Source of the DNA: a virus
Taxonomy: Duplodnaviria > Heunggongvirae > Uroviricota > Caudoviricetes
IMG/VR virus record: IMGVR_UViG_2711768064_000001
Coordinates: 1 to 37,261 of that record
Strand: one strand, 5' to 3'
DNA length: 37,261 nt
Below are positions 1 to 37,261 of this stretch, in pieces. Positions within the stretch are counted from its first letter, which is position 1; every line of letters begins with the position of its first letter. Made by a program: the position numbers and the translations under genes. The notes under the pieces are model-generated. The model saw nothing but the letters and a program-made list of their open reading frames with translations, was not told the DNA's origin and ran no database searches.

Positions 1-1185
1 TTAACCAGTTTTGATTTCCCCGTGTGGAACGACAATCCAATTAATGTGGTTTTGAGTGTAAATCTTAGTCGACTGAGCGTCGCTATGTGCCATTCGTCCT
101 TGGGGATCGATACCCTGCTGATCGAAAAGATGCGCTGCCAGAGCTCTGATTTCATGAAAGGTTGGTCTTTCATCCATCGGTAGATTGTCGCATAAACCTA
201 GCTTGTCTCGCGTTGCTGAAAACGATCGACTCAAATAGTCTGGTGCAACTTGTGTCGGATGTGAAACCTCTTTGCTTCGTTTAACTTGGCGTTCTGGGAT
301 TCTGTGAACGACAAACGGACTAGCCACATTATCTCGGCTATCGTCAATTATCCGTTTCAACTCTTCACCAATTGGTATTGCAACGTGTGACGCCTCTTTT
401 TTTTGCACTTTTTGCCTGTGGATGTAAAGCGTCCCATATATGCCATTTTGTGGTTGTTCGAACCAGACACATCCACATATACCGTCTTTAGGTTCGCGAA
501 TTGAGTAACGGATTCGCGATACTTCGAGTCGTGCATGTGTAGTTTGCAATGCTAGGTCCATTGCTGTTCTTAACCATGGTGCAGCGGCCTGCCTGATAGC
601 TATAAAATGCTCGAGTGACAGGCGCCGTCTTTTCTTCTCATCAGTCCTACGCATTTTTTTTCTGATGGCCGGGTTATCCAGCATTAGTGATTCATCGACC
701 GCATAAGAGAACAACTTTTTAAGAAAGCTGACCTTTCTGTTCTGCACATTTGCGGATGCGCTGGCATGATATTTGTTGATGTAGGTATTAACGTGTTCAA
801 GTTCGATATCGCATGCCGGAACATTTACGAAAAACGCTTTTACGCGTAGAGCGTCATTTTTCCAGTCATCTAAGGTGCTCTGGGAAGGACGTTCGTCTTC
901 GATAATCCGGGTCATTATGTGATCAACATGTTCAGCAAATGGTTTTGCTTCTCCGATAACACCGCCAGATTCTCTAATAAGATTTTCTACTGATGGAGAT
1001 AATTCTGCTCTCATCCTCAGGTTGTACTCTCTGGCGATTGCAATGGCTATTGCCCTATCCTTACCTATATTTTTCTTCTTTCCAGTAATAAGTGTGAATT
1101 TATAAACACCTCGATCTTTATCAAAAATCAGATAATCAGGAAGATGTCTGTATTCTTTTTTACGTGGCCTTGCCGCCATGGTCAC
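1..1185 (-). CDS. int: Tyrosine-type phage integrase
   Basis: 394-aa ORF, first gene at the prophage end, immediately followed by an excisionase-like ORF; C-terminal region with R/H/Y-containing catalytic-type segment (HEIRALAAHL...MAHSD...TKIYT). Confidence 0.88.
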   Translation of the reverse strand: MTMAARPRKKEYRHLPDYLIFDKDRGVYKFTLITGKKKNIGKDRAIAIAIAREYNLRMRAELSPSVENLIRESGGVIGEAKPFAEHVDHIMTRIIEDERPSQSTLDDWKNDALRVKAFFVNVPACDIELEHVNTYINKYHASASANVQNRKVSFLKKLFSYAVDESLMLDNPAIRKKMRRTDEKKRRRLSLEHFIAIRQAAAPWLRTAMDLALQTTHARLEVSRIRYSIREPKDGICGCVWFEQPQNGIYGTLYIHRQKVQKKEASHVAIPIGEELKRIIDDSRDNVASPFVVHRIPERQVKRSKEVSHPTQVAPDYLSRSFSATRDKLGLCDNLPMDERPTFHEIRALAAHLFDQQGIDPQGRMAHSDAQSTKIYTQNHINWIVVPHGEIKTG

Positions 1186-1668: not shown

Positions 1669-2027
1669 TTCTTAGTCTCCGGTGCTTTCGGCATTACTGC
1701 CCAGTGAGTGATATTGACGTTTTCAAGGTCCCCGACCTGAAATGTCCACTGCCATTCTCCGGTTTCTTTTTGCCCCCATGTGTACCAGAGAGAACGCCAG
1801 CCAATCAGCCAGCCTTCTCCACTAGCATCAAATAACAGAACACTTTCATTTGCTGGTGGCAGTTCAGCTGACACTGGTATTATTTTGTTTTCCAGTGCCG
1901 CACATTTAGCTTCAAGCGCGTTGAATTTACGTACTAGGTACTCAGCATTTGTTTCGTTCACTTTCAGATCTCGCGGTACACATTTCCCGCGAAGAAACCC
2001 TTCCATTTCGAAAACATTCATGCGCAT
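1665..2027 (-). CDS. DUF551-like phage protein
   Basis: Trp-rich C-terminal segment (GWLIGWRSLWYTW...THWAVMPKAP) resembling the DUF551 family common in lambdoid early regions. Confidence 0.55.
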   Translation of the reverse strand: MRMNVFEMEGFLRGKCVPRDLKVNETNAEYLVRKFNALEAKCAALENKIIPVSAELPPANESVLLFDASGEGWLIGWRSLWYTWGQKETGEWQWTFQVGDLENVNITHWAVMPKAPETKK

Positions 2028-2554
2028 TTGCGTAACTCCGATAACTCGTTAAAACGTTCCATAAACATCCCGTAGGCCTGGCCCGGTGCCAGTGGAATCA
2101 CGTTGAACATCTCTGTTGCCGGGATGCCTTCCAGTACAGGCCAGAAAGAGCCATCATCAAGCCCGAGATCGCGGCGTTCGGTTGCCAGCATGATGAGATC
2201 GGCATATTTCACAGGCGTGCTCATAACCGGGGGTAACCCGTATTTTTCACGGATTACGGCGTCTATTTTTTCTTCCATCCGTTTATAGTCAGGAAGAAGG
2301 CGTTTCAGTGGAGCCGGGATGTCCTGGCAATACGCTTCTGTTGCATCATGCATTAACGCTTCAAAAGCAAATTCCTGCGGTACCAGCTGGCTGCAAAGCA
2401 CCGCATGTTGGGCGACGCTGTAGAAGTGTGAAAGATGTCCTGCAAAGCGACAGATATTTGAAAGGGAAACCGCGATATCGTTAATAACGATGTCGTCTTT
2501 ATTTATCCTGTCATAATAAAAATGCTTCCCGGAAAAAGTTTTAATAAATGACAT
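2018..2554 (-). CDS. HD-domain phosphohydrolase (YfbR-like 5'-deoxynucleotidase family)
   Basis: His/Asp-rich metal-binding-type segment (HLSHFYSVAQHAV...MHDATEAY); start moved to internal ATG (MSFIKTF) preceded by GGAG. Confidence 0.7.
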   Translation of the reverse strand: MSFIKTFSGKHFYYDRINKDDIVINDIAVSLSNICRFAGHLSHFYSVAQHAVLCSQLVPQEFAFEALMHDATEAYCQDIPAPLKRLLPDYKRMEEKIDAVIREKYGLPPVMSTPVKYADLIMLATERRDLGLDDGSFWPVLEGIPATEMFNVIPLAPGQAYGMFMERFNELSELRKCA

Positions 2555-3097
2555 TTTGTTCTCCACGTATATGCGCTGCACCGCGCTGAATTCGGGTAAA
2601 AGGAAGCCCTCACCGTCCGGCGATTATTGAGTCAATTACATTTCCATAAATGCCCCCGTAGGGGCGGTTAGTTTCTCCACAAAACAGAGAAGAACACCTG
2701 TGGTGGCAGCCGCCCGGATGGATTGGGTTATGAGCCCGTCGTCCGATGATGCTCTTCTCTGTTTTGTAAAAAGGACGGTACCAGCCGGAAGCAAGGGTAC
2801 AAGCTGGTACCGCCAAGACAACACACAGCATAAAGTTGTGGTGCCGGGTGCCTCCCGGTGCCTGGCGAAGGTTGTACACCAGACGGGTGGGTATCCACAG
2901 AAGGTCGACTGTCAGCCTCAACCTTAACCCGCGTGCGCTGAGCCGCATTCACCACAACGCTAAGGATTCTCTCTGGTTGAAAATACTTAGCTGTTATGTG
3001 CCTGCTTTTAGCCACATCAGGCGAGGTGGACCTGGTTATTCCCCAACAACAAGGATTCGGTATAATCTGGATATCCCAACAACAGGTAGGAAGGAAA

Positions 3098-10341: not shown

Positions 10342-10415
10342 TTTATGCTCTGAAGTGTATACCCATGATGAGACTATATTTGTATCATGGGTATTCATAT
10401 ATACAGGAGGGTAAT

Positions 10416-11264
10416 ATGTCAAATAGGATATTTGATGCACTATACCGTGAGAAAATAGATATTTTTAAAAATTCTTTTTCCGCAACTTCAACTGAAGTTT
10501 TTTATGATCCTGAAAACAATCGTCTTATTCATGCTGGTGAATATGGAATATATCGTGAGTCGGTAGTAAGGGATTTTTTGAACTTTATAGTTCCTCAGCG
10601 ACTTGCTATATCTAATGGTTTTTTAATGTCCGCGATGGATGACATTAGCACGCAGTGTGATGTTGTTATTTTTGATTCTAAAATGACACCACTTTTTCAA
10701 GGTGGAGATAAACATAGGTTTTTCCCAATTGAATCTGTTTACTGCATTGGTGAGGTTAAGTCAAATTTATCTCGCGCTGCTTTTCGAGACGCCATTAACA
10801 AACTGGCGAAAAATAAAGCAATCGCCGAGAGAATAAAAAACCCTTCATTAAGTTTTAACTCTAGCAGTTTTAACTTTGATCCGGAAAACAACCCTTTTCA
10901 TGTTTATTCTAGCATATTGATCTGTAAGAAGCTTGATTTTGATATAAGCAATATAGAAAATGAACTAGATAATCTTTACTCTGATGAAATACAATTTAGG
11001 CATAGGCATAACCTAATCCTTAGTATCGAAGATGGGCTTCTTGCCTATTCAGCCCCGGATGGAGTGAAACTTCCATTCCCGATGCTTCGCCAGCAAAACT
11101 TTAAAAGTTGCTTCTTGACTCCAAAAGATGATGAATATTTCCACATGAAGTTTTTCGGTACATTTATGTTTATGTTAACCTCTGGTAAAATTTCCTTATA
11201 TCCTGAGTTCTCCGATTATATTTCACCAGTTCAAAATGGTGGAAGTGCTAGGGTTCAACTATGA
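10416..11264 (+). CDS. AT-rich moron protein with PD-(D/E)xK-like motif; candidate nuclease / defence protein
   Basis: 282 aa; ATG 10416 with AGGAGGG RBS; motif CDVVIFD...x26...ESVYCIGEVKS; flanked by hairpin upstream and terminator downstream. Confidence 0.65.
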   Translation: MSNRIFDALYREKIDIFKNSFSATSTEVFYDPENNRLIHAGEYGIYRESVVRDFLNFIVPQRLAISNGFLMSAMDDISTQCDVVIFDSKMTPLFQGGDKHRFFPIESVYCIGEVKSNLSRAAFRDAINKLAKNKAIAERIKNPSLSFNSSSFNFDPENNPFHVYSSILICKKLDFDISNIENELDNLYSDEIQFRHRHNLILSIEDGLLAYSAPDGVKLPFPMLRQQNFKSCFLTPKDDEYFHMKFFGTFMFMLTSGKISLYPEFSDYISPVQNGGSARVQL

Positions 11265-11802: not shown

Positions 11803-12189
11803 ATGTCCGATCCGATTTCCGGTACTGGGCTGGCTGGTGGTGTCCTGACGGGGGCCAGCGTCTATGGATTTCTGTCCGGAACCGATTACGGCGTGGTCTT
11901 TGGCGCGTTTGCCGGGGCTGTATTTTACATTGCCACCACAGCGGACCTGAGTGCAGCGCGCCGTCTGGCATATTTTCTGGTGTCGTATATTGCGGGGATC
12001 CTTTGTTCCGGGCTGGTGGGTTCAAAGCTGGCTCAGGTTACTGGCTACAGTGATAAACCACTGGATGCCATTGGTGCCGTAATCGTTTCTGCTTTAGCCG
12101 TCAAAATCCTGACGTTCCTGAATAATCAGGATGTTGGCTCGCTGGTGGCGCTGATAACGCGCCGGGGAGGTTCAGGTGGTACTAAATGA
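11803..12189 (+). CDS. Holin
   Basis: 128 aa with three hydrophobic segments, first gene of lysis cassette. Confidence 0.7.
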   Translation: MSDPISGTGLAGGVLTGASVYGFLSGTDYGVVFGAFAGAVFYIATTADLSAARRLAYFLVSYIAGILCSGLVGSKLAQVTGYSDKPLDAIGAVIVSALAVKILTFLNNQDVGSLVALITRRGGSGGTK

Positions 12190-12457
12190 CCCATCGGCAA
12201 CTATCAATGCGTTACTCTGCGCTGGGGTAGTGCTGACCCTGATGTTTTACCGTCGCGGCGATTCGCGACATCGACCGTGGATATCTCGCTTAGCTTGGCT
12301 GCTTACGGTCATTTATAGCGCCGTACCGCTGGCGTATCTGTGCGGTATCTACCCTTATTCATCTTGGGCCACTATCGGGGCCAACATTATTTTCCTGTCT
12401 GTGCTTGTCGCCGTCAGAGGCAACGTAGCGCGGCTGGTTGATCATCTGAGGCACTAA
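12176..12457 (+). CDS. Second holin-like / antiholin-like membrane protein
   Basis: 93 aa, two hydrophobic segments, between holin and endolysin. Confidence 0.5.
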   Translation: MVLNDPSATINALLCAGVVLTLMFYRRGDSRHRPWISRLAWLLTVIYSAVPLAYLCGIYPYSSWATIGANIIFLSVLVAVRGNVARLVDHLRH

Positions 12458-25722: not shown

Positions 25723-27550
25723 ATTTGAGCTTAAGGCGTTGATCACCGGTGTCGACAGGCTTTCTCCCGCGCTGTCGAAAATGCAAAAGAAAATCCGGGG
25801 ATTTAAACGCCAGGCGGAAGAAGCGTCACAGGGTGGGCTGGCGCTTGGTGGCGGACTGGCTGCGGGTCTGACGCTTTCCCTGAAATCTTATGCCGATCAG
25901 GAAAACGCCGCCACCGGGCTGAAAGTTGCCATGATGGATGCGAACGGTGAGGTCGGAAAGAGCTTTCAGGACATCAATAAACTGGCTATTGGCCTGGGTA
26001 ACCAGCTACCCGGTACAACGGCTGATTTCCAGAACATGATGCAGATGCTGGTGCGTCAGGGGATCCCGGCAGAAAACATTCTGGGTGGTGTGGGTAAAGC
26101 GACAGCTTATCTTGCGGTACAACTGAAAAAAACACCGGAAGCGGCTGCCGAGTTTGCCGCAAAGATGCAGGATGCTACCGGAACGGCCTCAGAAGACATG
26201 ATGGGGCTGTTCGACACAATTCAGAAGGCGTTTTATCTGGGCGTTGACGACACCAACATGCTGTCATTCTTCACTAAAACCAGCTCTGTTCTGAAGATGG
26301 TGAATAAGGACGGTCTTCAGGCTGCACAGAGTCTTGCCCCCATCAGTGTCATGATGGATCAGATGGGGATGAACGGGGAGTCGGCAGGTAATGCCCTGCG
26401 AAAAGTTATCCAGTCCGGATTAAGCGTTAAGAAAATCAGGGACGTCAATAAAATCATGGCCCGCCAGAAACTCGGGGTACAGCTCGATTTTACTGATGGC
26501 AAAGGGAGTTTTGGCGGTCTTGATAACATGTTCAGGCAACTGGCAAAGCTGCGAAAACTGACCGACGTTAAGCGAACCGGTGTACTTAAGGCAATATTTG
26601 GTGATGATGCCGAAACCCTTCAGGTGGTCAATGCTCTGATCGATAAAGGAAAGGATGGTTACGATCAGATCCAGCAGAAGATGCATAAACAGGCCAGCCT
26701 GAATAAACGTGTTCAGGCACAGCTTGGTACGCTGTCCAACCTGTGGGAGGCAATGACGGGGACCGCAACTAACGGTCTTGCAGCTATTGGCGGCGCATTT
26801 TCTGGTGACGCTAAAAATATCACGCAATGGCTGGGGGAGTTGGGGGAAAAATTCACGAAGTTTGCGGATGAAAATCCCCGGGTTATTCGCGGCGTCGTCG
26901 GGCTTGCTGCCGGTCTTGCGATTCTGAAACTGGGATTGATGGGCGTGGGCAGTGCCATCAGCATTGTCAGCAGGATCATGTCGATGACGCCGATTGGCAT
27001 GATTGCGACGGCGATAGCCCTGGCTGCGGGATTAATTATCACTAACTGGGATGTTGTCGGACCTTATTTCAAGAAGCTCTGGGAAACCATTGGTCCTTAT
27101 TTTGAGGCTGGCTGGGAACTCCTTAAGAAAGTTTTTGCCTGGTCGCCGCTGGGGATGGTGATCAATAACTGGGGGCCGGTTGTTAAGTGGTTTCAGGATA
27201 TGTGGGACAAGCTGAAGCCAATTATTGAGTGGTTTACCGACAGTTCCGGAGACACGGTCGATGCCATTAACTCTGCGCAGTGGGGCGCGGGTGCTTATGA
27301 TGCTTATGGGACGGGAATACCGGCACGGGGATACACACCTTATCCGGCGGTGGATCCGGCTCAGTCAAACAACGCCTCCGATGCCACAGGCCCGAATCCC
27401 TTCATGATTAACAAAGCTTCTGCGCCAAAAGTTGATGGTGAGATCAAGGTATCTTTTGTGAATTCGCCTCCGGGGATGCGGGTTATGGAAACGCGATCCA
27501 GCGGTTTTGATATAAATCACGATGTTGGCTATACGCATATTGGCAGATGA
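25715..27550 (+). CDS. Tail tape measure protein
   Basis: 611 aa, Gly/Ala-rich repeats and TM-like segments, after chaperone. Confidence 0.85.
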   Translation: MAEFELKALITGVDRLSPALSKMQKKIRGFKRQAEEASQGGLALGGGLAAGLTLSLKSYADQENAATGLKVAMMDANGEVGKSFQDINKLAIGLGNQLPGTTADFQNMMQMLVRQGIPAENILGGVGKATAYLAVQLKKTPEAAAEFAAKMQDATGTASEDMMGLFDTIQKAFYLGVDDTNMLSFFTKTSSVLKMVNKDGLQAAQSLAPISVMMDQMGMNGESAGNALRKVIQSGLSVKKIRDVNKIMARQKLGVQLDFTDGKGSFGGLDNMFRQLAKLRKLTDVKRTGVLKAIFGDDAETLQVVNALIDKGKDGYDQIQQKMHKQASLNKRVQAQLGTLSNLWEAMTGTATNGLAAIGGAFSGDAKNITQWLGELGEKFTKFADENPRVIRGVVGLAAGLAILKLGLMGVGSAISIVSRIMSMTPIGMIATAIALAAGLIITNWDVVGPYFKKLWETIGPYFEAGWELLKKVFAWSPLGMVINNWGPVVKWFQDMWDKLKPIIEWFTDSSGDTVDAINSAQWGAGAYDAYGTGIPARGYTPYPAVDPAQSNNASDATGPNPFMINKASAPKVDGEIKVSFVNSPPGMRVMETRSSGFDINHDVGYTHIGR

Positions 27551-27566
27551 CGGAACCAGATATAAT
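27540..27566 (+). promoter_or_regulatory. Candidate sigma70 promoter for tail-module moron
   Basis: TTGGCA (27540-27545), 15-nt spacer, TATAAT (27561-27566), overlapping tape-measure stop. Confidence 0.4.
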
Positions 27567-27602
27567 TTGTCTTTAAGTTTGTTATCAACTGAAGGGAAAT
27601 CT

Positions 27603-27980
27603 ATGGGTCTGTTACATGCCATTATAGGTAATGCCGGTGAAATTAATGCATCAGATGCACAACAGGAATTAGGGGCTGTTTTAGGTGAGGGAGAAAATGT
27701 CGAACTTGCCTATAAACTCATTCGTGACCAAATTATTCTGACTAACAGAAGGTTAATTTTTATTGATAAGCAGGGTGTCACAGGGAAAAAAGTCGAGTAT
27801 CGTTCGATTCCATATAAATCTGTGACAAACTTTTCTATTGAAACCGCCGGGCATCTTGATCTTGATGCTGAAATGAAGATATGGATTTCTGGTATTGCAG
27901 AACCGATAAAAAAACAGTTCAGTAAAGGAGCAAACATTTATAAATTGCAGGCCCATCTGGCTCAAAAAATAGCAGGGTAA
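27603..27980 (+). CDS. Moron protein, bacterial PH-domain-like
   Basis: 125 aa AT-rich ORF with AAGGGA RBS; segment ILTNRRLIFIDKQGVTGKKVEYRSIPYKSV resembles bacterial PH domains. Confidence 0.55.
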   Translation: MGLLHAIIGNAGEINASDAQQELGAVLGEGENVELAYKLIRDQIILTNRRLIFIDKQGVTGKKVEYRSIPYKSVTNFSIETAGHLDLDAEMKIWISGIAEPIKKQFSKGANIYKLQAHLAQKIAG

Positions 27981-31421: not shown

Positions 31422-32466
31422 ATTTCAGCGCCCGACGCTGGCAGAAAATATCAGTATGCTCCGTAACGATTTATTCGCCAGGCTGGACGTCAGCGACACG
31501 CTCCGGCGCATGGATGAAGACGTGCGGGCAAAGGTGTATGCGGCGGCGCTGCATACGGTTTACGGGTACATCGATTATCTGGCAATGAACATGCTGCCTG
31601 ACCTGTGCGATGAGTCCTGGCTGGCGCGACATGCTGCGATGAAACGGTGTCCGCGCAAGGGGGCCACGGCTGCCAGCGGGTATATGCGCTGGGAAGGTGT
31701 CAGCGATGGCCTGAAGGTGACTGCCGGGAGCGTGATTCAGCGCGATGACCTGGTTCAGTACACGGCAACTGCCGATGCAACCAGCTCCGGTGGTGTCCTG
31801 CGTGTGCCGATCACTTGCTCAACTACAGGCGCGGTCGGTAACGCTGACGACGGTACGGCATTAATCCTGGTCACGCCGGTGAATGGTCTGCCGTCTTCCG
31901 GTGTGGCTGACACCCTTACAGGCGGATTTGATACTGAAGAGCTGGAAACGTGGCGCGCCCGCGTCATTGAGCGGTATTACTGGACGCCTCAGGGCGGGGC
32001 TGACGGGGACTATGTCGTCTGGGCTAAAGAAGTGCCCGGCATTACCCGCGCATGGACATACCGACACTGGATGGGAACGGGGACTGTCGGTGTGATGATT
32101 GCCAGCAGTGACCTGATTAACCCCATTCCGGAAGAATCAACGGAAACGGCAGCAAGACAACATATCGGGCCACTGGCCCCGGTGGCAGGCTCTGATTTGT
32201 ATGTATTCAGGCCGGTGGCACATACGGTGGATTTTCATATCCGCGTGACGCCGGACACACCAGAAATACGGGCTGCCATTACCGCGGAGTTGCGTTCGTT
32301 CCTGCTGCGTGATGGTTATCCGCAGGGAGAACTGAAGGTATCGCGTATCAGTGAGGCGATTTCCGGTGCGAACGGGGAATACAGCCATCAGTTGCTTGCA
32401 CCGGTGGACAATATCTCCATTGCGAAAAACGAACTGGCGGTACTGGGGACGATTTCATGGACGTGA
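31408..32466 (+). CDS. Baseplate J-like protein (Mu gp47-like)
   Basis: 352 aa, gene order. Confidence 0.75.
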
Positions 32467-33041
32467 CAAACGATGATTACATCCGCCTGTTATCGGCACT
32501 GTTGCCGCCCGGTCCGGCGTGGTCAGCCAGCGATCCGGCGATTGCCGGTGCGGCACCGTCATTAACCCGTGTTCATCAGCGTGCGGATGCCCTGATGCGG
32601 GAGCTGGATCCGCGCACCACCACTGAACTGATAAACCGCTGGGAGCGTCTGTGCGGTCTGCCGGATGAATGTATTCCCGCAGGGACACAGACCCTTCGTC
32701 AGCGTCAGCAACGGCTGGATGCGAAGGTTAACCTGGCGGGCAGCATCAACGAGAATTTTTATCTTGCACAGCTTGCTGCCCTGGGCAGACCAGATGCCAA
32801 CATCACGCGATACGACAAAAGCACGTTCACCTGCTCATCGGTCTGTACTGACGCGGTGAATGCGCCGGAATGGCGGTATTACTGGCAGGTCAACATGCCA
32901 GCCGCCACAAACACCACCTGGATGACATGTGGCGATCCCTGTGATTCCGCGCTGCGTATCTGGGGCGACACCGTTGTCGAATGTGTGCTTAACAAACTCT
33001 GCCCGTCGCATACCTACGTAATTTTTAAATATCCGGAGTAA
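32457..33041 (+). CDS. Tail protein gp48-like (DUF2313)
   Basis: Gene order upstream of tail fibre. Confidence 0.6.
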
Positions 33042-33044
33042 TCC

Positions 33045-33791
33045 ATGCATCGTATAGACACGAAAACCGCGCAGAAGGATAAGTTCGGCGCGGGTAAGAA
33101 CGGTTTTACCCGTGGTAACCCCCAGACCGGCACACCTGCCACCGATCTGGATGATGACTACTTTGACATGTTGCAGGAAGAGCTTTGTGGCGTGGTGGAG
33201 GCATCCGGTGCCAGCCTGGAGAAGGGGCGAAACGACCAGTTGCTTACCGCGCTTCGTGCTCTGCTGTTAAGCCGCAAGAATCCGTTTGGTGATATCAAAT
33301 CGGATGGCACGGTGAAAACGGCTCTCGAAAACCTTGGTTTGGGAGAAGGTGCTCCAGCTATTGGCGTTCCGTTCTTCTGGCCCTCCGCGGCAATGCCAAA
33401 TACTGTAATCGACAGCTGGTCCGGTATGGTGTTTTTGAAGTTCAACGGGGCGAAATTTTCTGCCTCTAATTACCCTGTGCTGGCGAAAGTGTTTCCTTCG
33501 CTGGTATTACCTGAAGCCCGCGGTGATTTCATTCGTATCTGGGATGACGGGCGAGGTGCAGATGGTGGTCGCGAATTATTAAGCTGGCAGGAAGCTACAA
33601 ACTTTTCTCAGTTTGCCGGGAATATAGGCGGAGGTGCGGGACACGCAATTAACTTTCATGATGGCATCGCCGGAAATCAGCCAGGATTTTCACGATTTAA
33701 TTTCACCAGTAACTCTGTGGGTGATGGTGTGAGTTTTGTTGCTGTCAGACCGCGAAATATTACATTTAACTTTCTGGTGAGGGCTAAATAA
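33045..33791 (+). CDS. Tail fibre protein (constant N-terminal part plus variable C-terminal part in current orientation)
   Basis: Crossover site inside the gene at 33322-33347; followed by tail fibre assembly gene. Confidence 0.75.
33322..33347. other. gix/hix-like inversion crossover site (left)
   Basis: TTCTCGAAAACC-TT-GGTTTGGGAGAA; inverted copy at 35066-35091. Confidence 0.5.
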
Positions 33792-34384
33792 TGAAACCTG
33801 TTTTTGATGAAAATGGGCTGGCTACAGTGCCGGGCGATATGCGTTGTTTTTATTATGATGCTGAAACATCTGAGTATACGGGCTGGTCTGATGAATATAT
33901 TAATACTGGCGTAAGTATGCCCGCCTGTTCCACTGGTATTGACCCTGGCGAAAACATTCCGGGAAGAGTGGCAGTATTTACAGGTAAGGGATGGAGCCAT
34001 GAAGAAGACCATCGCAATGAGACTGTTTACTCAATCGAAAATGGCGCAGCTGTTACAGTGGATTATATCGGTGCCATCAAAGACGGTTATGTCACGATTT
34101 CACCGTTAACGCCATACGATAAATGGGATGGTGAGAAATGGGTGACAGACACTGAGGCACAACACAGTGCCGCAGTAGACGCGGCAGAAGCACAGCGCCA
34201 GTCACTGATTGATGCAGCAATGGCTTCCATTAGTCTGATTCAGCTGAAATTACAGGCCGGACGGAAACTGACTCAGGCAGAAACAACCCGACTTAACGCC
34301 GTGCTGGATTACATTGACGCGGTGACGGCAACAGATACCAGCACCGCGCCGGATGTCATCTGGCCTGAACTGCCGGAGGCGTAG
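33791..34384 (+). CDS. Tail fibre assembly protein
   Basis: 197 aa after tail fibre; conserved C-terminal Tfa-like region. Confidence 0.75.
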   Translation: MKPVFDENGLATVPGDMRCFYYDAETSEYTGWSDEYINTGVSMPACSTGIDPGENIPGRVAVFTGKGWSHEEDHRNETVYSIENGAAVTVDYIGAIKDGYVTISPLTPYDKWDGEKWVTDTEAQHSAAVDAAEAQRQSLIDAAMASISLIQLKLQAGRKLTQAETTRLNAVLDYIDAVTATDTSTAPDVIWPELPEA

Positions 34385-34784
34385 GCCATTCAATATCGGG
34401 TGCTGTTGACGTATCAACACGCATCAGCAGCACACGGTATTTCTTCCATTGGGTGAGAGTTGTAGCTTCTTCATAAGTTGCGATATCAGCATCAACAGCA
34501 TCCTGACGCCAGGATATTTCACTGTCAGCTTTTTCCCGTAATTGGGATTTTTTAACTTCAGCAATAGCTATTAATTCCTTTTTGGTCGGCTGAGGAATAT
34601 CTATCAGTGCTGGTTTTCCATTCAGTGTTCCAATCTGTTTTCCTGGTGGAATATCCATAAATAACTTTTTATGTTCTTCCTCACTGACTATTACACCATC
34701 ATCAGGCCACAGACCTGATGCCTCAAATTTTTCTTTCTCCGATATGGGGAAAAAGCCATTTGCTTTAGCGCTCCATACGTACAT
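34356..34784 (-). CDS. Alternative tail fibre assembly protein (inverted orientation)
   Basis: Minus-strand ORF whose C-terminus (VDTSTAPDIEWPTPP) parallels the plus-strand Tfa C-terminus (TDTSTAPDVIWPELP). Confidence 0.7.
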   Translation of the reverse strand: MYVWSAKANGFFPISEKEKFEASGLWPDDGVIVSEEEHKKLFMDIPPGKQIGTLNGKPALIDIPQPTKKELIAIAEVKKSQLREKADSEISWRQDAVDADIATYEEATTLTQWKKYRVLLMRVDTSTAPDIEWPTPPAVQAR

Positions 34785-34785
34785 A

Positions 34786-35121
34786 TCAATACCCCACCGC
34801 TATAATGTCCACATTAAATCCCCCGGGACCTGCCTGCCAGATGCTGGCCCCTGTTAATGATTTTGTTTGATGAACAACCGCCACATTTGCTGGTGATTGT
34901 GTTTCAGTTGTTACAGTACCGATATCATTCCAGTTAATTGAGATGGAATAGTTCGTTGTTGTAAACGACCGGGGGAAAGTTATGTGTCTTACATTGGTGC
35001 CAATAGGAAATCCAAGATAAACACGCTGAATTATCATTCCTCCAGGTAACATAACCCAGTTAGCACCTTCTCCAAAACCAACGTTTATGAAAATGCAGAA
35101 ATAACGAGCAAATGGCATCAT
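34786..35121 (-). CDS. Alternative tail fibre C-terminal segment (silent in current orientation)
   Basis: Minus-strand ORF adjoining the right crossover site; would fuse to constant tail fibre part upon inversion. Confidence 0.6.
   Translation of the reverse strand: MMPFARYFCIFINVGFGEGANWVMLPGGMIIQRVYLGFPIGTNVRHITFPRSFTTTNYSISINWNDIGTVTTETQSPANVAVVHQTKSLTGASIWQAGPGGFNVDIIAVGY
35066..35091. other. gix/hix-like inversion crossover site (right)
   Basis: TTCTCCAAAACC-AA-CGTTTATGAA, inverted relative to left site. Confidence 0.5.
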
Positions 35122-35147
35122 TCCTGCTTTTGTCAGGGGGATCTACC

Positions 35148-35276
35148 ATGCTTATTGGCTATGTACGCGTATCAACAAATGACCAGAACACAGATCTACA
35201 ACGTAATGCGCTGAACTGTGCAGGATGCGAGCTGATTTTTGAAGACAAGATAAGCGGTACAAAGTCCGAGACCTAG
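35148..35276 (+). pseudogene. Truncated DNA invertase (Gin/Pin/Hin-family serine recombinase, N-terminal 42 codons only)
   Basis: Encodes MLIGYVRVSTNDQNTDLQRNALNCAGCELIFEDKISGTKSET then stop; matches invertase N-terminus including catalytic-Ser region. Confidence 0.75.
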
Positions 35277-35371
35277 GGCTGACACTGCTGTTCTTGATGC
35301 AAATTAAAAGATTTAATAGTGAGTAGCGGCCTTACTAATGTAAGGCCGCTATAATCATTTTATTAATTGCA

Positions 35372-37261
35372 TTAATCGTGTTTTGGCCATACTTTCAATG
35401 CAATTTCCCCCAACTTTTTACCCCGCTCCAGGATTTCATCCTCATCCCATTTATCCTTAACTATAAGTGGAATGTTCAGTCGTAGATTGGTGTGGACGAT
35501 GAGAGCATCACGTTTTTTCAGAAATACAGCATTCTGAACAGAACGGTTTACGCTAAGGTTAAGCAAAGTTAGATTTCCCAAAGTAGCTATCGCTTGTTGC
35601 CGTTTCCATACCAGTAGCTGTTCAGGGGTAAGATCGGTTCCAGACAGAACAATTTGGTTCAATACCGTAGCATCTGAATTTGTCACCATACGACCATTTT
35701 CGAGAGGCCAACAGGAATACCAACTTTGAGGCATAAGATGATCGATATCGAGATTAGAAAGATTTGGAACATCAGGCTTTTCTGTCTTCACTTGGCGACA
35801 AAGTTCTCTTTCAAGTTCCGTTAACATTGAGCGCATTTTCGGTGCGTCGAGCCTGCCAGGATAAAGTGGAGCATTGATGCAAGCGTTGAGAAATTCTGAG
35901 TCACCAGGCCAACGTGAGGCTTCGCCATTTAAGTTATTGAGGATATTACGTAACTCAACACTGGAAATTTCCGTTTTAGCCAAGTGCCGCAATACATTCA
36001 TAAATACATTGTTGTAATTCTTTGGCGTCAGGCCACATACGGCTCTTCGTACTACGTAGGAGACAAGATCATTATACATGGCTGCTTTCTCATCATCAGC
36101 GATGTTAGCTATCGAAATGAACAAAGCAAGCGGATAAAGTGTCGTCACATCATAGTCTGCGATGCGATATCCAAAGTGTGAGATGGGGGTTGTGCCAAAA
36201 CCATCAACCAGTTCTTTATATTGTAATGCATATTGTTTGAGACGCTTTACTTGCAGATCTGCTCGTTGTGAAGACAAGTCCTTACTTACATAATCACGAT
36301 ACTCATTGTAAAGGCGAGACAGATCAATTTCACGCTGCCTTTCTGATTGCAATGTCGCATGTACTAGCCACTCCATGCGTGGTTTATTAATACGTCCACG
36401 GCGTTGCTTTTCCGACCAGTATTTATCTTCAAAGCTCTTCCACTCATTTTCATATAATTCAATAGCATTAATATTTTCATGCTCAGCGCACATAAAGATA
36501 TAGTTGCGAATAAGATCCGTGGCATGAAGTTCCGCCCCTCGCCCATTTAATGTTTCAAAAATTATTTGGGCATCATCTTCAGCTTCGAGAAATATGCTTA
36601 CCAGTTTCAGATCTGTTAAGACAGCCTCAATTAGAGCTACAGCATTTTCTTGTGGTGAGTGGTTTTCTATTTTAATCCATTTTATAAAGGCTTCAGTAAA
36701 AAAACATAATGCTTCTAGTGATGGCGGGTGATTAAAATGCTTACGCAACGTACCATGCTGCGTGAAACTATCAGAGAATACGTCCCGGAGATCATCAATA
36801 TTTTCAACATTAAAACTTTGAATAAAATGAGTTTGATCCCGAAAAGTTGGCCATAGTTTGAAGCGTTCTACTTCTTTATTTCGCATTGTGTCTTCGTTTG
36901 AGTTTTTCAGGCAAGGCGAAATGAGAGCCTCTAAGCTGAAAAGATCCGTAGCACGTAATGCTAATCGGATGGATGCCAGAACATATTGAAGAGTGGCCAA
37001 TCGTTGCTGACCATCAATAATATGTATGGAATCTACACCTAATAATCCTTTTTTTGATTGAGGTTCCAGTACAACCGCACCAAGGAAATGGGGAGTTGGT
37101 TTTGTACCCGAGAGCCGGGATTGTGCTTTCTCTAGGATATCCTCCAGTAGAGCTGACCATTGGTCTTGCTGAGTCCATACATAGGCACGTTGATAGAATG
37201 GAACACAGTATTGTCGGCGGTCTTGAAAAAGTTGTTGGACAGTTAGCGTCTCGGATTTCAT
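35372..37261 (-). CDS. GmrSD-like type IV restriction protein (DUF262 N-terminal, DUF1524 C-terminal)
   Basis: N-terminal CVPFYQRAYVW...IIDGQQRL motif (DUF262); C-terminal DIDHLMPQSW motif (DUF1524/HNH-like); AT-rich; start codon at window edge. Confidence 0.8.
   Translation of the reverse strand: MKSETLTVQQLFQDRRQYCVPFYQRAYVWTQQDQWSALLEDILEKAQSRLSGTKPTPHFLGAVVLEPQSKKGLLGVDSIHIIDGQQRLATLQYVLASIRLALRATDLFSLEALISPCLKNSNEDTMRNKEVERFKLWPTFRDQTHFIQSFNVENIDDLRDVFSDSFTQHGTLRKHFNHPPSLEALCFFTEAFIKWIKIENHSPQENAVALIEAVLTDLKLVSIFLEAEDDAQIIFETLNGRGAELHATDLIRNYIFMCAEHENINAIELYENEWKSFEDKYWSEKQRRGRINKPRMEWLVHATLQSERQREIDLSRLYNEYRDYVSKDLSSQRADLQVKRLKQYALQYKELVDGFGTTPISHFGYRIADYDVTTLYPLALFISIANIADDEKAAMYNDLVSYVVRRAVCGLTPKNYNNVFMNVLRHLAKTEISSVELRNILNNLNGEASRWPGDSEFLNACINAPLYPGRLDAPKMRSMLTELERELCRQVKTEKPDVPNLSNLDIDHLMPQSWYSCWPLENGRMVTNSDATVLNQIVLSGTDLTPEQLLVWKRQQAIATLGNLTLLNLSVNRSVQNAVFLKKRDALIVHTNLRLNIPLIVKDKWDEDEILERGKKLGEIALKVWPKHD

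What the first reader, a model, noticed from the sequence alone, without database searches (positions are those of the whole stretch)
35148..37261. Invertase reduced to a 42-codon stub next to an inserted GmrSD-like defence gene
The invertase gene expected to drive the tail-fibre switch encodes only MLIGYVRVSTNDQNTDLQRNALNCAGCELIFEDKISGTKSET and then stops. Immediately afterwards an AT-rich, oppositely oriented 629-aa gene encodes a DUF262/DUF1524 protein of the GmrSD type IV restriction class. A perfect hairpin lies between them (AGCGGCCTTAC-TAAT-GTAAGGCCGCT, about 35318-35345). The picture suggests a defence gene inserted into or replacing the invertase, which would lock the host-range switch unless an invertase acts in trans. 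A GmrSD-like enzyme in a prophage would restrict phages with modified DNA.
Basis: partly seen in the sequence, partly recalled or inferred. Interest (0 to 1): 0.6.

Follow-up and report, generated by a model that had tools for sequence, protein, structure and literature searches.

The report
Invertase stub beside known GmrSD gene
At the right end of an E. coli prophage, a well-characterised anti-T-even restriction gene (GmrSD) has replaced most of the tail-fibre invertase gene. The leftover stub still carries the DNA elements needed for flipping, and the fibre switch demonstrably still flips with a recombinase supplied from elsewhere.

Summary
A 42-codon remnant of pinE (35148-35276) is followed by a strong hairpin (35324-35351). 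After that comes an oppositely oriented, AT-rich 629-aa GmrSD gene (35372-37261). This gene is 99% identical to UTI89_C2960, the biochemically studied "UT" type IV enzyme. Its position next to tail-fibre and invertase genes in SfII/e14-like prophages is already in the literature.

The 3' three-quarters of the invertase are gone, not displaced. Nothing resembling them lies within 8 kb past the window.

The "locked switch" reading is wrong. Both crossover sites and the two Fis enhancer sites, 48 bp apart and inside the stub, are intact. The same prophage at the same att site occurs with the segment flipped. The exchange maps to the few bases around the crossover core.

In the UTI89-type prophage, 78 complete genomes have one orientation and 25 the other. 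So the switch is an orphan that depends on a Pin-family invertase acting in trans.

The slot after the invertase is a recurrent anti-T-even cargo site: McrA in e14, PD-T4-3 in a close relative, GmrSD here. This is ordinary, largely known biology with one modest new detail.

The parts
33045..33791 (+). Tail-fibre gene in its current orientation (248 aa). The constant N-terminal part is 33045-33333. The variable C-terminal part lies inside the invertible segment.
   Evidence: ORF. It follows Mu gp48/YmfQ and Baseplate_J genes. Annotated in RefSeq.
33322..33347 (.). Left crossover site (pixL), CTCGAAAACC-TT-GGTTTGGGAGAA, with core TT at 33334-33335.
   Evidence: Inverted repeat I1. Sequence. It contains the e14 P-segment repeat TTGGTTTGGGAGAAGG reported in PMC12529663.
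33791..34384 (+). Tail-fibre assembly chaperone for the current fibre tip.
   Evidence: Pfam Caudo_TAP, E 2.3e-27.
34356..34784 (-). Tail-fibre assembly chaperone for the alternative fibre tip.
   Evidence: Pfam Caudo_TAP, E 7.4e-32.
34786..35121 (-). Silent alternative fibre C-terminus (gp53-like). After inversion it joins the constant part in frame to give a 194-aa fibre.
   Evidence: Pfam Gp53-like_C. In-frame fusion shown. The fused 585-nt CDS is annotated in strain B1S11.
35067..35092 (.). Right crossover site (pixR), TTCTCCAAAACC-AA-CGTTTATGAAAA, with core AA at 35080-35081.
   Evidence: This is the left edge of the module shared among GmrSD prophages.
35148..35276 (+). 5' remnant of pinE. 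Its first 41 codons are identical to K-12 PinE. A 2-bp deletion and a 1-bp insertion then create TAG at 35274-35276. Residual DNA homology to pinE fades out at about 35293.
   Evidence: Annotated as a pseudogene in RefSeq.
35170..35232 (.). Recombinational enhancer inside the stub. It has two Fis-consensus sites centred at 35177 and 35225, 48 bp apart. The proximal site is about 96 bp from the pixR core.
   Evidence: Consensus scan and alignment with Mu gin, which has sites at the same positions. [quoted passage not shown]
35324..35351 (.). Perfect 12-bp hairpin between the convergent stub and gmrSD. It is a probable two-way transcription terminator and insulator, and it belongs to the cargo side of the junction.
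   Evidence: terminator-like on the + strand; z = -6.7.
35372..37261 (-). gmrSD, a single-chain type IV, modification-dependent restriction endonuclease (629 aa). It is an allele of the UTI89 'UT' enzyme.
   Evidence: DGQQR at 83; D507, H508, N522; 623/629 identical to UTI89_C2960. Biochemistry in PMC4437046.

Best explanation
This is the right end of an SfII/SfV/e14-family prophage with a Mu-type tail.

Its last module once read: invertible fibre segment, pinE, cargo, attR. A recombination event replaced pinE from about codon 45 onward, and whatever followed it, with a low-GC cassette. That cassette carries gmrSD with its own terminator hairpin. It runs on, through a DinI-like pseudogene, to the att core in tRNA-Pro.

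GmrSD is a single-chain type IV enzyme. It has an N-terminal ParB-like NTPase domain and a C-terminal HNH nuclease. It cuts glucosyl-hydroxymethylcytosine DNA and so protects the lysogen from T-even phages.

The pinE remnant makes no recombinase. It still holds the Fis-bound enhancer, and the two 26-bp crossover sites are intact. All cis requirements for inversion are therefore kept. The fibre segment is flipped by a Pin/Gin-family serine invertase made elsewhere in the cell, from another prophage or plasmid or from an incoming phage.

Shown here: the anatomy, the loss of the 3' part of the invertase, near-identity to a characterised enzyme, both orientations in nature, and the exchange mapping to the core.

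Inferred: Fis binding at the two sites, the identity of the trans invertase, and the terminator function of the hairpin.
For: Anatomy and domains.

No 3' invertase remnant: nothing in the window or in 8 kb beyond it.

Breakpoint: defined against intact pinE alleles.

Enzyme identity: 99% identical to UTI89_C2960, whose properties and those of Eco94GmrSD are published.

Cis elements: crossover sites. Two Fis sites 48 bp apart, about 96 bp from pixR, at the same positions as in Mu gin. This agrees with the literature.

Inversion without a cis invertase, window-type prophage:
- The artificially flipped sequence matches strains B1S11 and MINF_2E over 2656 bases with 1 mismatch.
- B1S11 has the same prophage at the same tRNA-Pro site, 99.9% identical, with the same protein accessions.
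- Its hybrid sites place the exchange between two polymorphic positions 6-7 bp apart around the core TT.

Inversion without a cis invertase, UTI89-type prophage: 78 genomes in one orientation and 25 in the other.

Trans inversion of the e14 P segment by PinQ, PinR and PinE is published (PMC12529663).

Candidate trans invertases: all ten window-type genomes have at least one extra chromosomal match when the 3' part of pinE is added to the query. Six of the ten have a pinQ-like match.
Against: - The trans invertase was not identified or located in any genome. The extra matches could be fragments.
- Some flipped ST95 genomes, such as EC9682, show no pinE-like or pinQ-like match on the chromosome. 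Their flip may be ancestral or due to a plasmid, a phage or a more distant invertase.
- Fis binding is inferred from consensus and position only.
- The hairpin has a clear T-run only on the + strand, so termination of gmrSD transcription is not established.
- No close homologue of this GmrSD occurs in 50,697 sequenced phage records. Whether these prophages are still inducible is unknown.
Confidence: 0.85

Rival explanations
1. Locked switch. Loss of the invertase freezes the fibre segment in one orientation, so the prophage makes only one fibre type.
For: No intact serine recombinase is encoded in the window. The only other tblastn hit to PinE is a holin gene at E 0.056.
Against: Both orientations exist in near-identical prophages carrying the same stub. 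All cis elements are intact.
Confidence: 0.05
2. The flips are made by general homologous recombination (RecA) between the 25-bp inverted repeats, not by a site-specific invertase.
For: Some flipped genomes show no pinE-like or pinQ-like match on the chromosome.
Against: In B1S11 the exchange lies in the 6-7 bp between two polymorphic positions around the core. It does not lie in the longer 13-bp identical stretch to its right. A 25-bp repeat with two mismatches is a very poor RecA substrate (established knowledge).
Confidence: 0.05
3. The stub survives by chance, not because it is the enhancer. The junction simply happened to fall at codon 45, and the module then spread as a unit.
For: All 296 GmrSD-bearing genomes may descend from one junction event, because the junction is the same in different prophages. 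That would give a single independent observation.
Against: Three other independent truncations also end after the distal Fis site: 31 codons plus IS4, 35 codons plus a tail-fibre assembly fragment, and 104 codons in phage 606R2. None of the 60 sampled hits ends inside the enhancer while keeping pixR. The sample is small, and the search favours longer matches.
Confidence: 0.4

Closest known systems
UTI89_C2960 ('UT enzyme'), Eco94GmrSD and E. coli CT596 GmrSD: single-chain type IV restriction enzymes
   Same: 629 aa, with 623/629 residues identical to the UTI89 protein. Same DGQQR motif and same D507-H508-N522 HNH residues (PMC4437046). Same genomic place: directly after the tail-fibre genes of an SfII-like prophage, next to tail-fibre assembly genes and an invertase homologue (PMC4619093). 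UTI89 itself has the identical stub, hairpin and DinI-like pseudogene.
   Different: Six amino-acid differences. The prophage sits at tRNA-Pro near yejM rather than near ssrA, and it carries different fibre-tip cassettes.
e14 P-segment / PinE / McrA module of E. coli K-12
   Same: Same gene order: ymfQ, fibre, two convergent chaperones, alternative tip, invertase, then a type IV restriction gene at the prophage end. Same crossover repeat. The first 41 residues of PinE are identical.
   Different: e14 keeps a complete 184-aa PinE, and its cargo is McrA on the same strand. Here the invertase is cut at about codon 45, and the cargo is GmrSD on the opposite strand.
Gin/G segment of phage Mu; Hin, Cin (Fis/enhancer-dependent DNA invertases)
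   Same: Two inverted 26-bp sites flank alternative fibre tips and chaperones. The enhancer has two Fis sites 48 bp apart inside the 5' end of the invertase gene, at the same positions as in Mu gin.
   Different: No recombinase is encoded in cis, so the system is an orphan substrate.
PinQ/PinR-driven inversion of the e14 P segment (Kirigo et al. 2025, PMC12529663)
   Same: A recombinase from one prophage flips the fibre segment of another prophage.
   Different: In K-12 the target still has its own PinE. Here trans supply is obligatory. No anti-adsorption role of the fibre chimeras was tested here.

Membership tests
GmrSD type IV restriction endonucleases | N-terminal GmrS/DUF262 (ParB-like NTPase) domain with the DGQQR motif | tested here: met
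   Pfam GmrSD_N, E 6.8e-33, residues 8-256. DGQQR at residue 83.
GmrSD type IV restriction endonucleases | C-terminal GmrD/DUF1524 domain with the HNH catalytic residues (D507, H508, N522 in Eco94GmrSD) | tested here: met
   Pfam GmrSD_C, E 2.2e-19, residues 451-619. D507, H508 and N522 are present in the translation. These residues were defined by mutagenesis in PMC4437046.
GmrSD type IV restriction endonucleases | Close sequence relationship to an enzyme with demonstrated activity | tested here: met
   623/629 residues identical to UTI89_C2960. PADLOC mREase_IV match over 629 of 629 positions, 1407 bits.
GmrSD type IV restriction endonucleases | Modification-dependent cleavage of glc-5hmC/5hmC DNA and restriction of T-even phages | not testable with these tools
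   Known only for the 99% and 93% identical homologues.
Pin/Gin/Hin/Cin serine DNA invertases (as a functional recombinase) | Complete catalytic domain, oligomerisation helix and C-terminal helix-turn-helix (about 184-190 aa) | tested here: not met
   Only residues 1-41 remain. The match covers Pfam Resolvase positions 2-48 of 145. No further part is found within 8 kb.
Fis/enhancer-dependent invertible DNA segment (G, P or C segment type) | Two 26-bp crossover sites in inverted orientation with complementary 2-bp cores | tested here: met
   pixL 33322-33347 (core TT) and pixR 35067-35092 (core AA). The arms are 25 nt and 92% complementary.
Fis/enhancer-dependent invertible DNA segment (G, P or C segment type) | Enhancer with two Fis sites 48 bp apart, about 100 bp from one crossover site | tested here: met
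   Consensus sites are centred at 35177 (1 mismatch) and 35225 (0 mismatches), at the same positions as in Mu gin. Actual Fis binding cannot be tested here.
Fis/enhancer-dependent invertible DNA segment (G, P or C segment type) | Both orientations occur, each giving an in-frame fibre plus its own chaperone | tested here: met
   In-frame fusion. Flipped form found in B1S11 and MINF_2E. UTI89-type prophage: 78 genomes in one orientation and 25 in the other.
Intrinsic (rho-independent) terminator | GC-rich hairpin followed by a U-run on the transcribed strand | tested here: inconclusive
   The hairpin is strong. The scan scores it on the + strand only. On the gmrSD strand the U-run is interrupted.

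The most novel reading that the evidence does not exclude
The 5' stub of pinE is kept by selection because it is the Fis enhancer. This would turn the fibre segment into an orphan switch that flips only when another Din-family invertase is present, from a co-resident prophage or plasmid or from a superinfecting phage.

The fibre state of these GmrSD prophages would then report on, or respond to, the cell's other mobile elements. By analogy with PinQ/StfE2, it might add a second anti-T-even layer next to GmrSD.
Probability: 0.3. Interest if true: 0.5.

Novelty: already known. Interest (0 to 1): 0.27.

Why it matters
- It corrects a tempting inference. A dead invertase gene next to an invertible segment does not mean a frozen switch, because the enhancer lies in the 5' end of the gene and the recombinases work in trans.
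- It gives annotators a rule: look at which part of the pseudogene survives.
- It documents that the slot after the fibre invertase in e14/SfII-like prophages repeatedly carries anti-T-even cargo: McrA, PD-T4-3 and GmrSD.
- The enzyme itself and its prophage location are already published, so the gain is incremental.

Tried and rejected
- **Remnant of the invertase beyond the window.** I looked for an intron-like or displaced 3' part of the invertase and found none.
- **Second serine recombinase in the window.** I found none. The weak tblastn hit at 12164-12307 is a holin gene.
- **Homologues in sequenced phages.** A protein search of 50,697 phage records found only 23-25% identical proteins from unrelated hosts.
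- **Solved structures.** The search found only a distant N-terminal match, 9jfl_B at E 9e-8. I did not run a structure prediction, because a 99% identical protein has been characterised.
- **NCBIfam.** It gave nothing useful.
- **Locating the trans invertase.** The search tool lists only the best place per record, so I could only count extra places using chimeric queries. I could not see what those places are.
- **Literature access.** Two PMC ids for reviews on DNA invertases were not held.
- **Cargo in phage 606R2.** The 281-aa gene that truncates the invertase there has no Pfam or PADLOC match.

Full report
**What is there**

The window is a complete-looking temperate prophage.
- Integrase lies at 1-1185 (-).
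- Early and regulatory genes include an S24 repressor, CII, RusA, KilA-N, DUF968 and antiterminator Q.
- Lysis genes are holins and an endolysin.
- Structural genes run from terminase to capsid, followed by a Mu-type contractile tail and baseplate.

The last 4 kb are the tail-fibre module.
- YmfQ/gp48-like gene, 32457-33041.
- Fibre gene, 33045-33791.
- Two convergent chaperone genes, 33791-34384 (+) and 34356-34784 (-).
- A silent gp53-like fibre tip, 34786-35121 (-).
- The 42-codon stub, 35148-35276 (+).
- A hairpin, 35324-35351.
- A 629-aa gene on the minus strand, 35372-37261.

The hairpin folds far better than shuffled sequence (-24.5 kcal/mol, z = -6.7).

The sequence 33000-37261 is 100% identical to the chromosome of E. 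coli MJ-T and five other strains. RefSeq already marks the stub there as a pseudogene.

**The restriction gene**

The 629-aa protein has the GmrSD_N and GmrSD_C domains. It carries the DGQQR motif at residue 83 and the residues D507, H508 and N522. Mutagenesis of Eco94GmrSD showed these residues are needed for cleavage (PMC4437046).

It is 623/629 identical to UTI89_C2960. According to the same paper, that "UT enzyme" is insensitive to the T4 inhibitor IPI*. It restricts T2, T6 and other T-even phages but not T4.

The exact sequence is found on 298 contigs, and its 90% cluster has 1185 members. The gene occurs in 296 of 5426 complete E. coli genomes. No sequenced phage in the phage collection carries a close relative.

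Its position is already described. [quoted passage not shown] **Replacement, not insertion**

The first 41 residues of the stub are identical to K-12 PinE. At the DNA level, homology to intact pinE alleles is clean up to 35266. A 2-bp deletion and a 1-bp insertion then produce the TAG, and residual similarity ends near 35293.

tblastn with an intact 184-aa PinE finds residues 1-44 only. This holds for the window, for 8 kb beyond its end, and for UTI89 and B1S11. The refuting scenario of an invertase continuing beyond the window is therefore excluded.

The unit from pixR (35067) through the stub, gmrSD and a DinI-like pseudogene to the att core inside tRNA-Pro is 3.1 kb. It is 99% identical between MJ-T and UTI89, although the two prophages sit at different chromosomal places and carry different fibre cassettes. 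The junction is therefore old and moves as a unit.

**The switch is not locked**

The two crossover sites are intact.
- pixL is CTCGAAAACC-TT-GGTTTGGGAGAA at 33322-33347.
- pixR is TTCTCCAAAACC-AA-CGTTTATGAAAA at 35067-35092.
- They contain the repeat reported for the e14 P segment.

Flipping the DNA between the cores joins the constant fibre part in frame to the silent tip, giving a 194-aa fibre.

That artificial flipped sequence, including the stub and the start of gmrSD, matches strains B1S11 and MINF_2E over all 2656 bases with one mismatch. B1S11 carries the same prophage at the same tRNA-Pro site. It is 99.9% identical over the 23 kb compared and has the same protein accessions.

The two sites differ at two positions, one on each side of the core. 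In B1S11 the left site has the pixL base on the left and the pixR base on the right. The exchange therefore happened in the 6-7 bp around the core, not in the longer identical stretch beside it. That is the signature of a serine invertase, not of general recombination.

The UTI89-type prophage has the same stub. Its native orientation covers at least 80% of the query in 78 genomes, and the flipped one does so in 25. About 23 of those 25 match at 99.3-100% identity over the full length, IHE3034 and APEC O1 among them.

**Why it can still flip**

In the stub, two matches to the Fis consensus GNNYRNNWNNYRNNC are centred at 35177 and 35225. They are exactly 48 bp apart, and the first is 96 bp from the pixR core. 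Mu gin has matches at the same aligned positions. The truncation point lies about 35-60 bp past the second site. The stub therefore keeps the whole enhancer, and only the protein is missing.

Din-family invertases substitute for one another (established knowledge). PinQ, PinR and PinE all invert the e14 P segment (PMC12529663).

I also searched with gmrSD joined to the missing 3' part of pinE. All ten window-type genomes showed at least one extra chromosomal match. With gmrSD joined to pinQ, six of the ten did.

I could not see what those matches are. Some flipped ST95 genomes have none on the chromosome. The identity of the acting invertase remains open.

**Is the stub kept for a reason?**

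Three further independent truncations of this invertase end after the second Fis site.
- 31 codons followed by IS4.
- 35 codons followed by a chaperone fragment.
- 104 codons followed by an unknown opposite-strand gene in phage vB_EcoM-606R2.

This fits selection for the enhancer. The number is small, however, and all GmrSD cases may trace to one event. I give it no more than even odds.

**The slot**

After an intact pinE, K-12 e14 carries McrA. A close relative with the same fibre cassettes carries a GIY-YIG protein that matches the PD-T4-3 defence model at E 2.4e-140. Here the slot holds GmrSD. All three act on T-even phages or their modified DNA. The gene is low in GC, convergent with the fibre operon and bracketed by its own hairpin, as expected for a moron.

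**Verdict**

The gene is a known enzyme in a known place, and the pseudogene is already annotated. The new details are that the stub equals the enhancer and that the switch keeps flipping in trans. These are modest and follow from established invertase biology.

Noticed in passing
window 10365-11264 (+): A 299-aa DUF6602 protein lies between antiterminator Q and the holins, the classic moron position. It matches PADLOC PD-(D/E)xK (E 2.2e-30) and NucC-type nuclease models (E 7e-19), with no partner genes nearby. It could be a second, uncharacterised defence or nuclease cargo.
   Followed up: partly
window 27522-27980 (+): A bacterial PH-domain gene (bPH_1, E 6e-48) sits between the tape-measure gene and the DNA circularisation gene. 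It is absent from the UTI89 prophage and is split by IS1 in strain B1S11.
   Followed up: no
window end 37261; L001 12263-13183: The window stops exactly on the gmrSD start codon. The prophage continues about 900 bp further, with the gmrSD upstream region, a frameshifted DinI-like gene and attR in tRNA-Pro. UTI89 keeps a 58-nt tRNA-Pro fragment at the same place although its element lies next to ssrA, which suggests tandem or hybrid elements there.
   Followed up: partly
L007 8104-9492; L010 4910-6404; L002 13495-14268: The slot after the fibre invertase carries different anti-T-even genes in relatives. PD-T4-3 (a LEM-3-like GIY-YIG protein) follows an intact pinE in strain Z1323HEC0067. McrA occupies the slot in K-12 e14. 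UTI89 has a PD-T4-3-like gene further right, after the DinI pseudogene.
   Followed up: partly
L003 6955-8119; L012 3084-3941; L013 3083-3351; L004 4082-5252: Other independent invertase stubs were seen. One has 104 aa followed by an unknown 281-aa opposite-strand gene in phage vB_EcoM-606R2. One has 31 codons followed by IS4. One has 35 codons followed by a chaperone fragment. In the fourth, the GmrSD-type stub is followed by IS903B where gmrSD should be.
   Followed up: partly
L005 3986-6060 (strain NDM2): This gmrSD copy has an upstream neighbour that starts only at window-equivalent 35202, so pixR and the first Fis site are missing. It abuts an integrase fragment, and a ParA-family gene lies downstream. 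It looks like a degraded or relocated remnant of the module.
   Followed up: no
window 2018-2581 (-): An early-region ORF has a weak YfbR-like 5'-deoxynucleotidase match (E 3e-5, below the Pfam cut-off).
   Followed up: no
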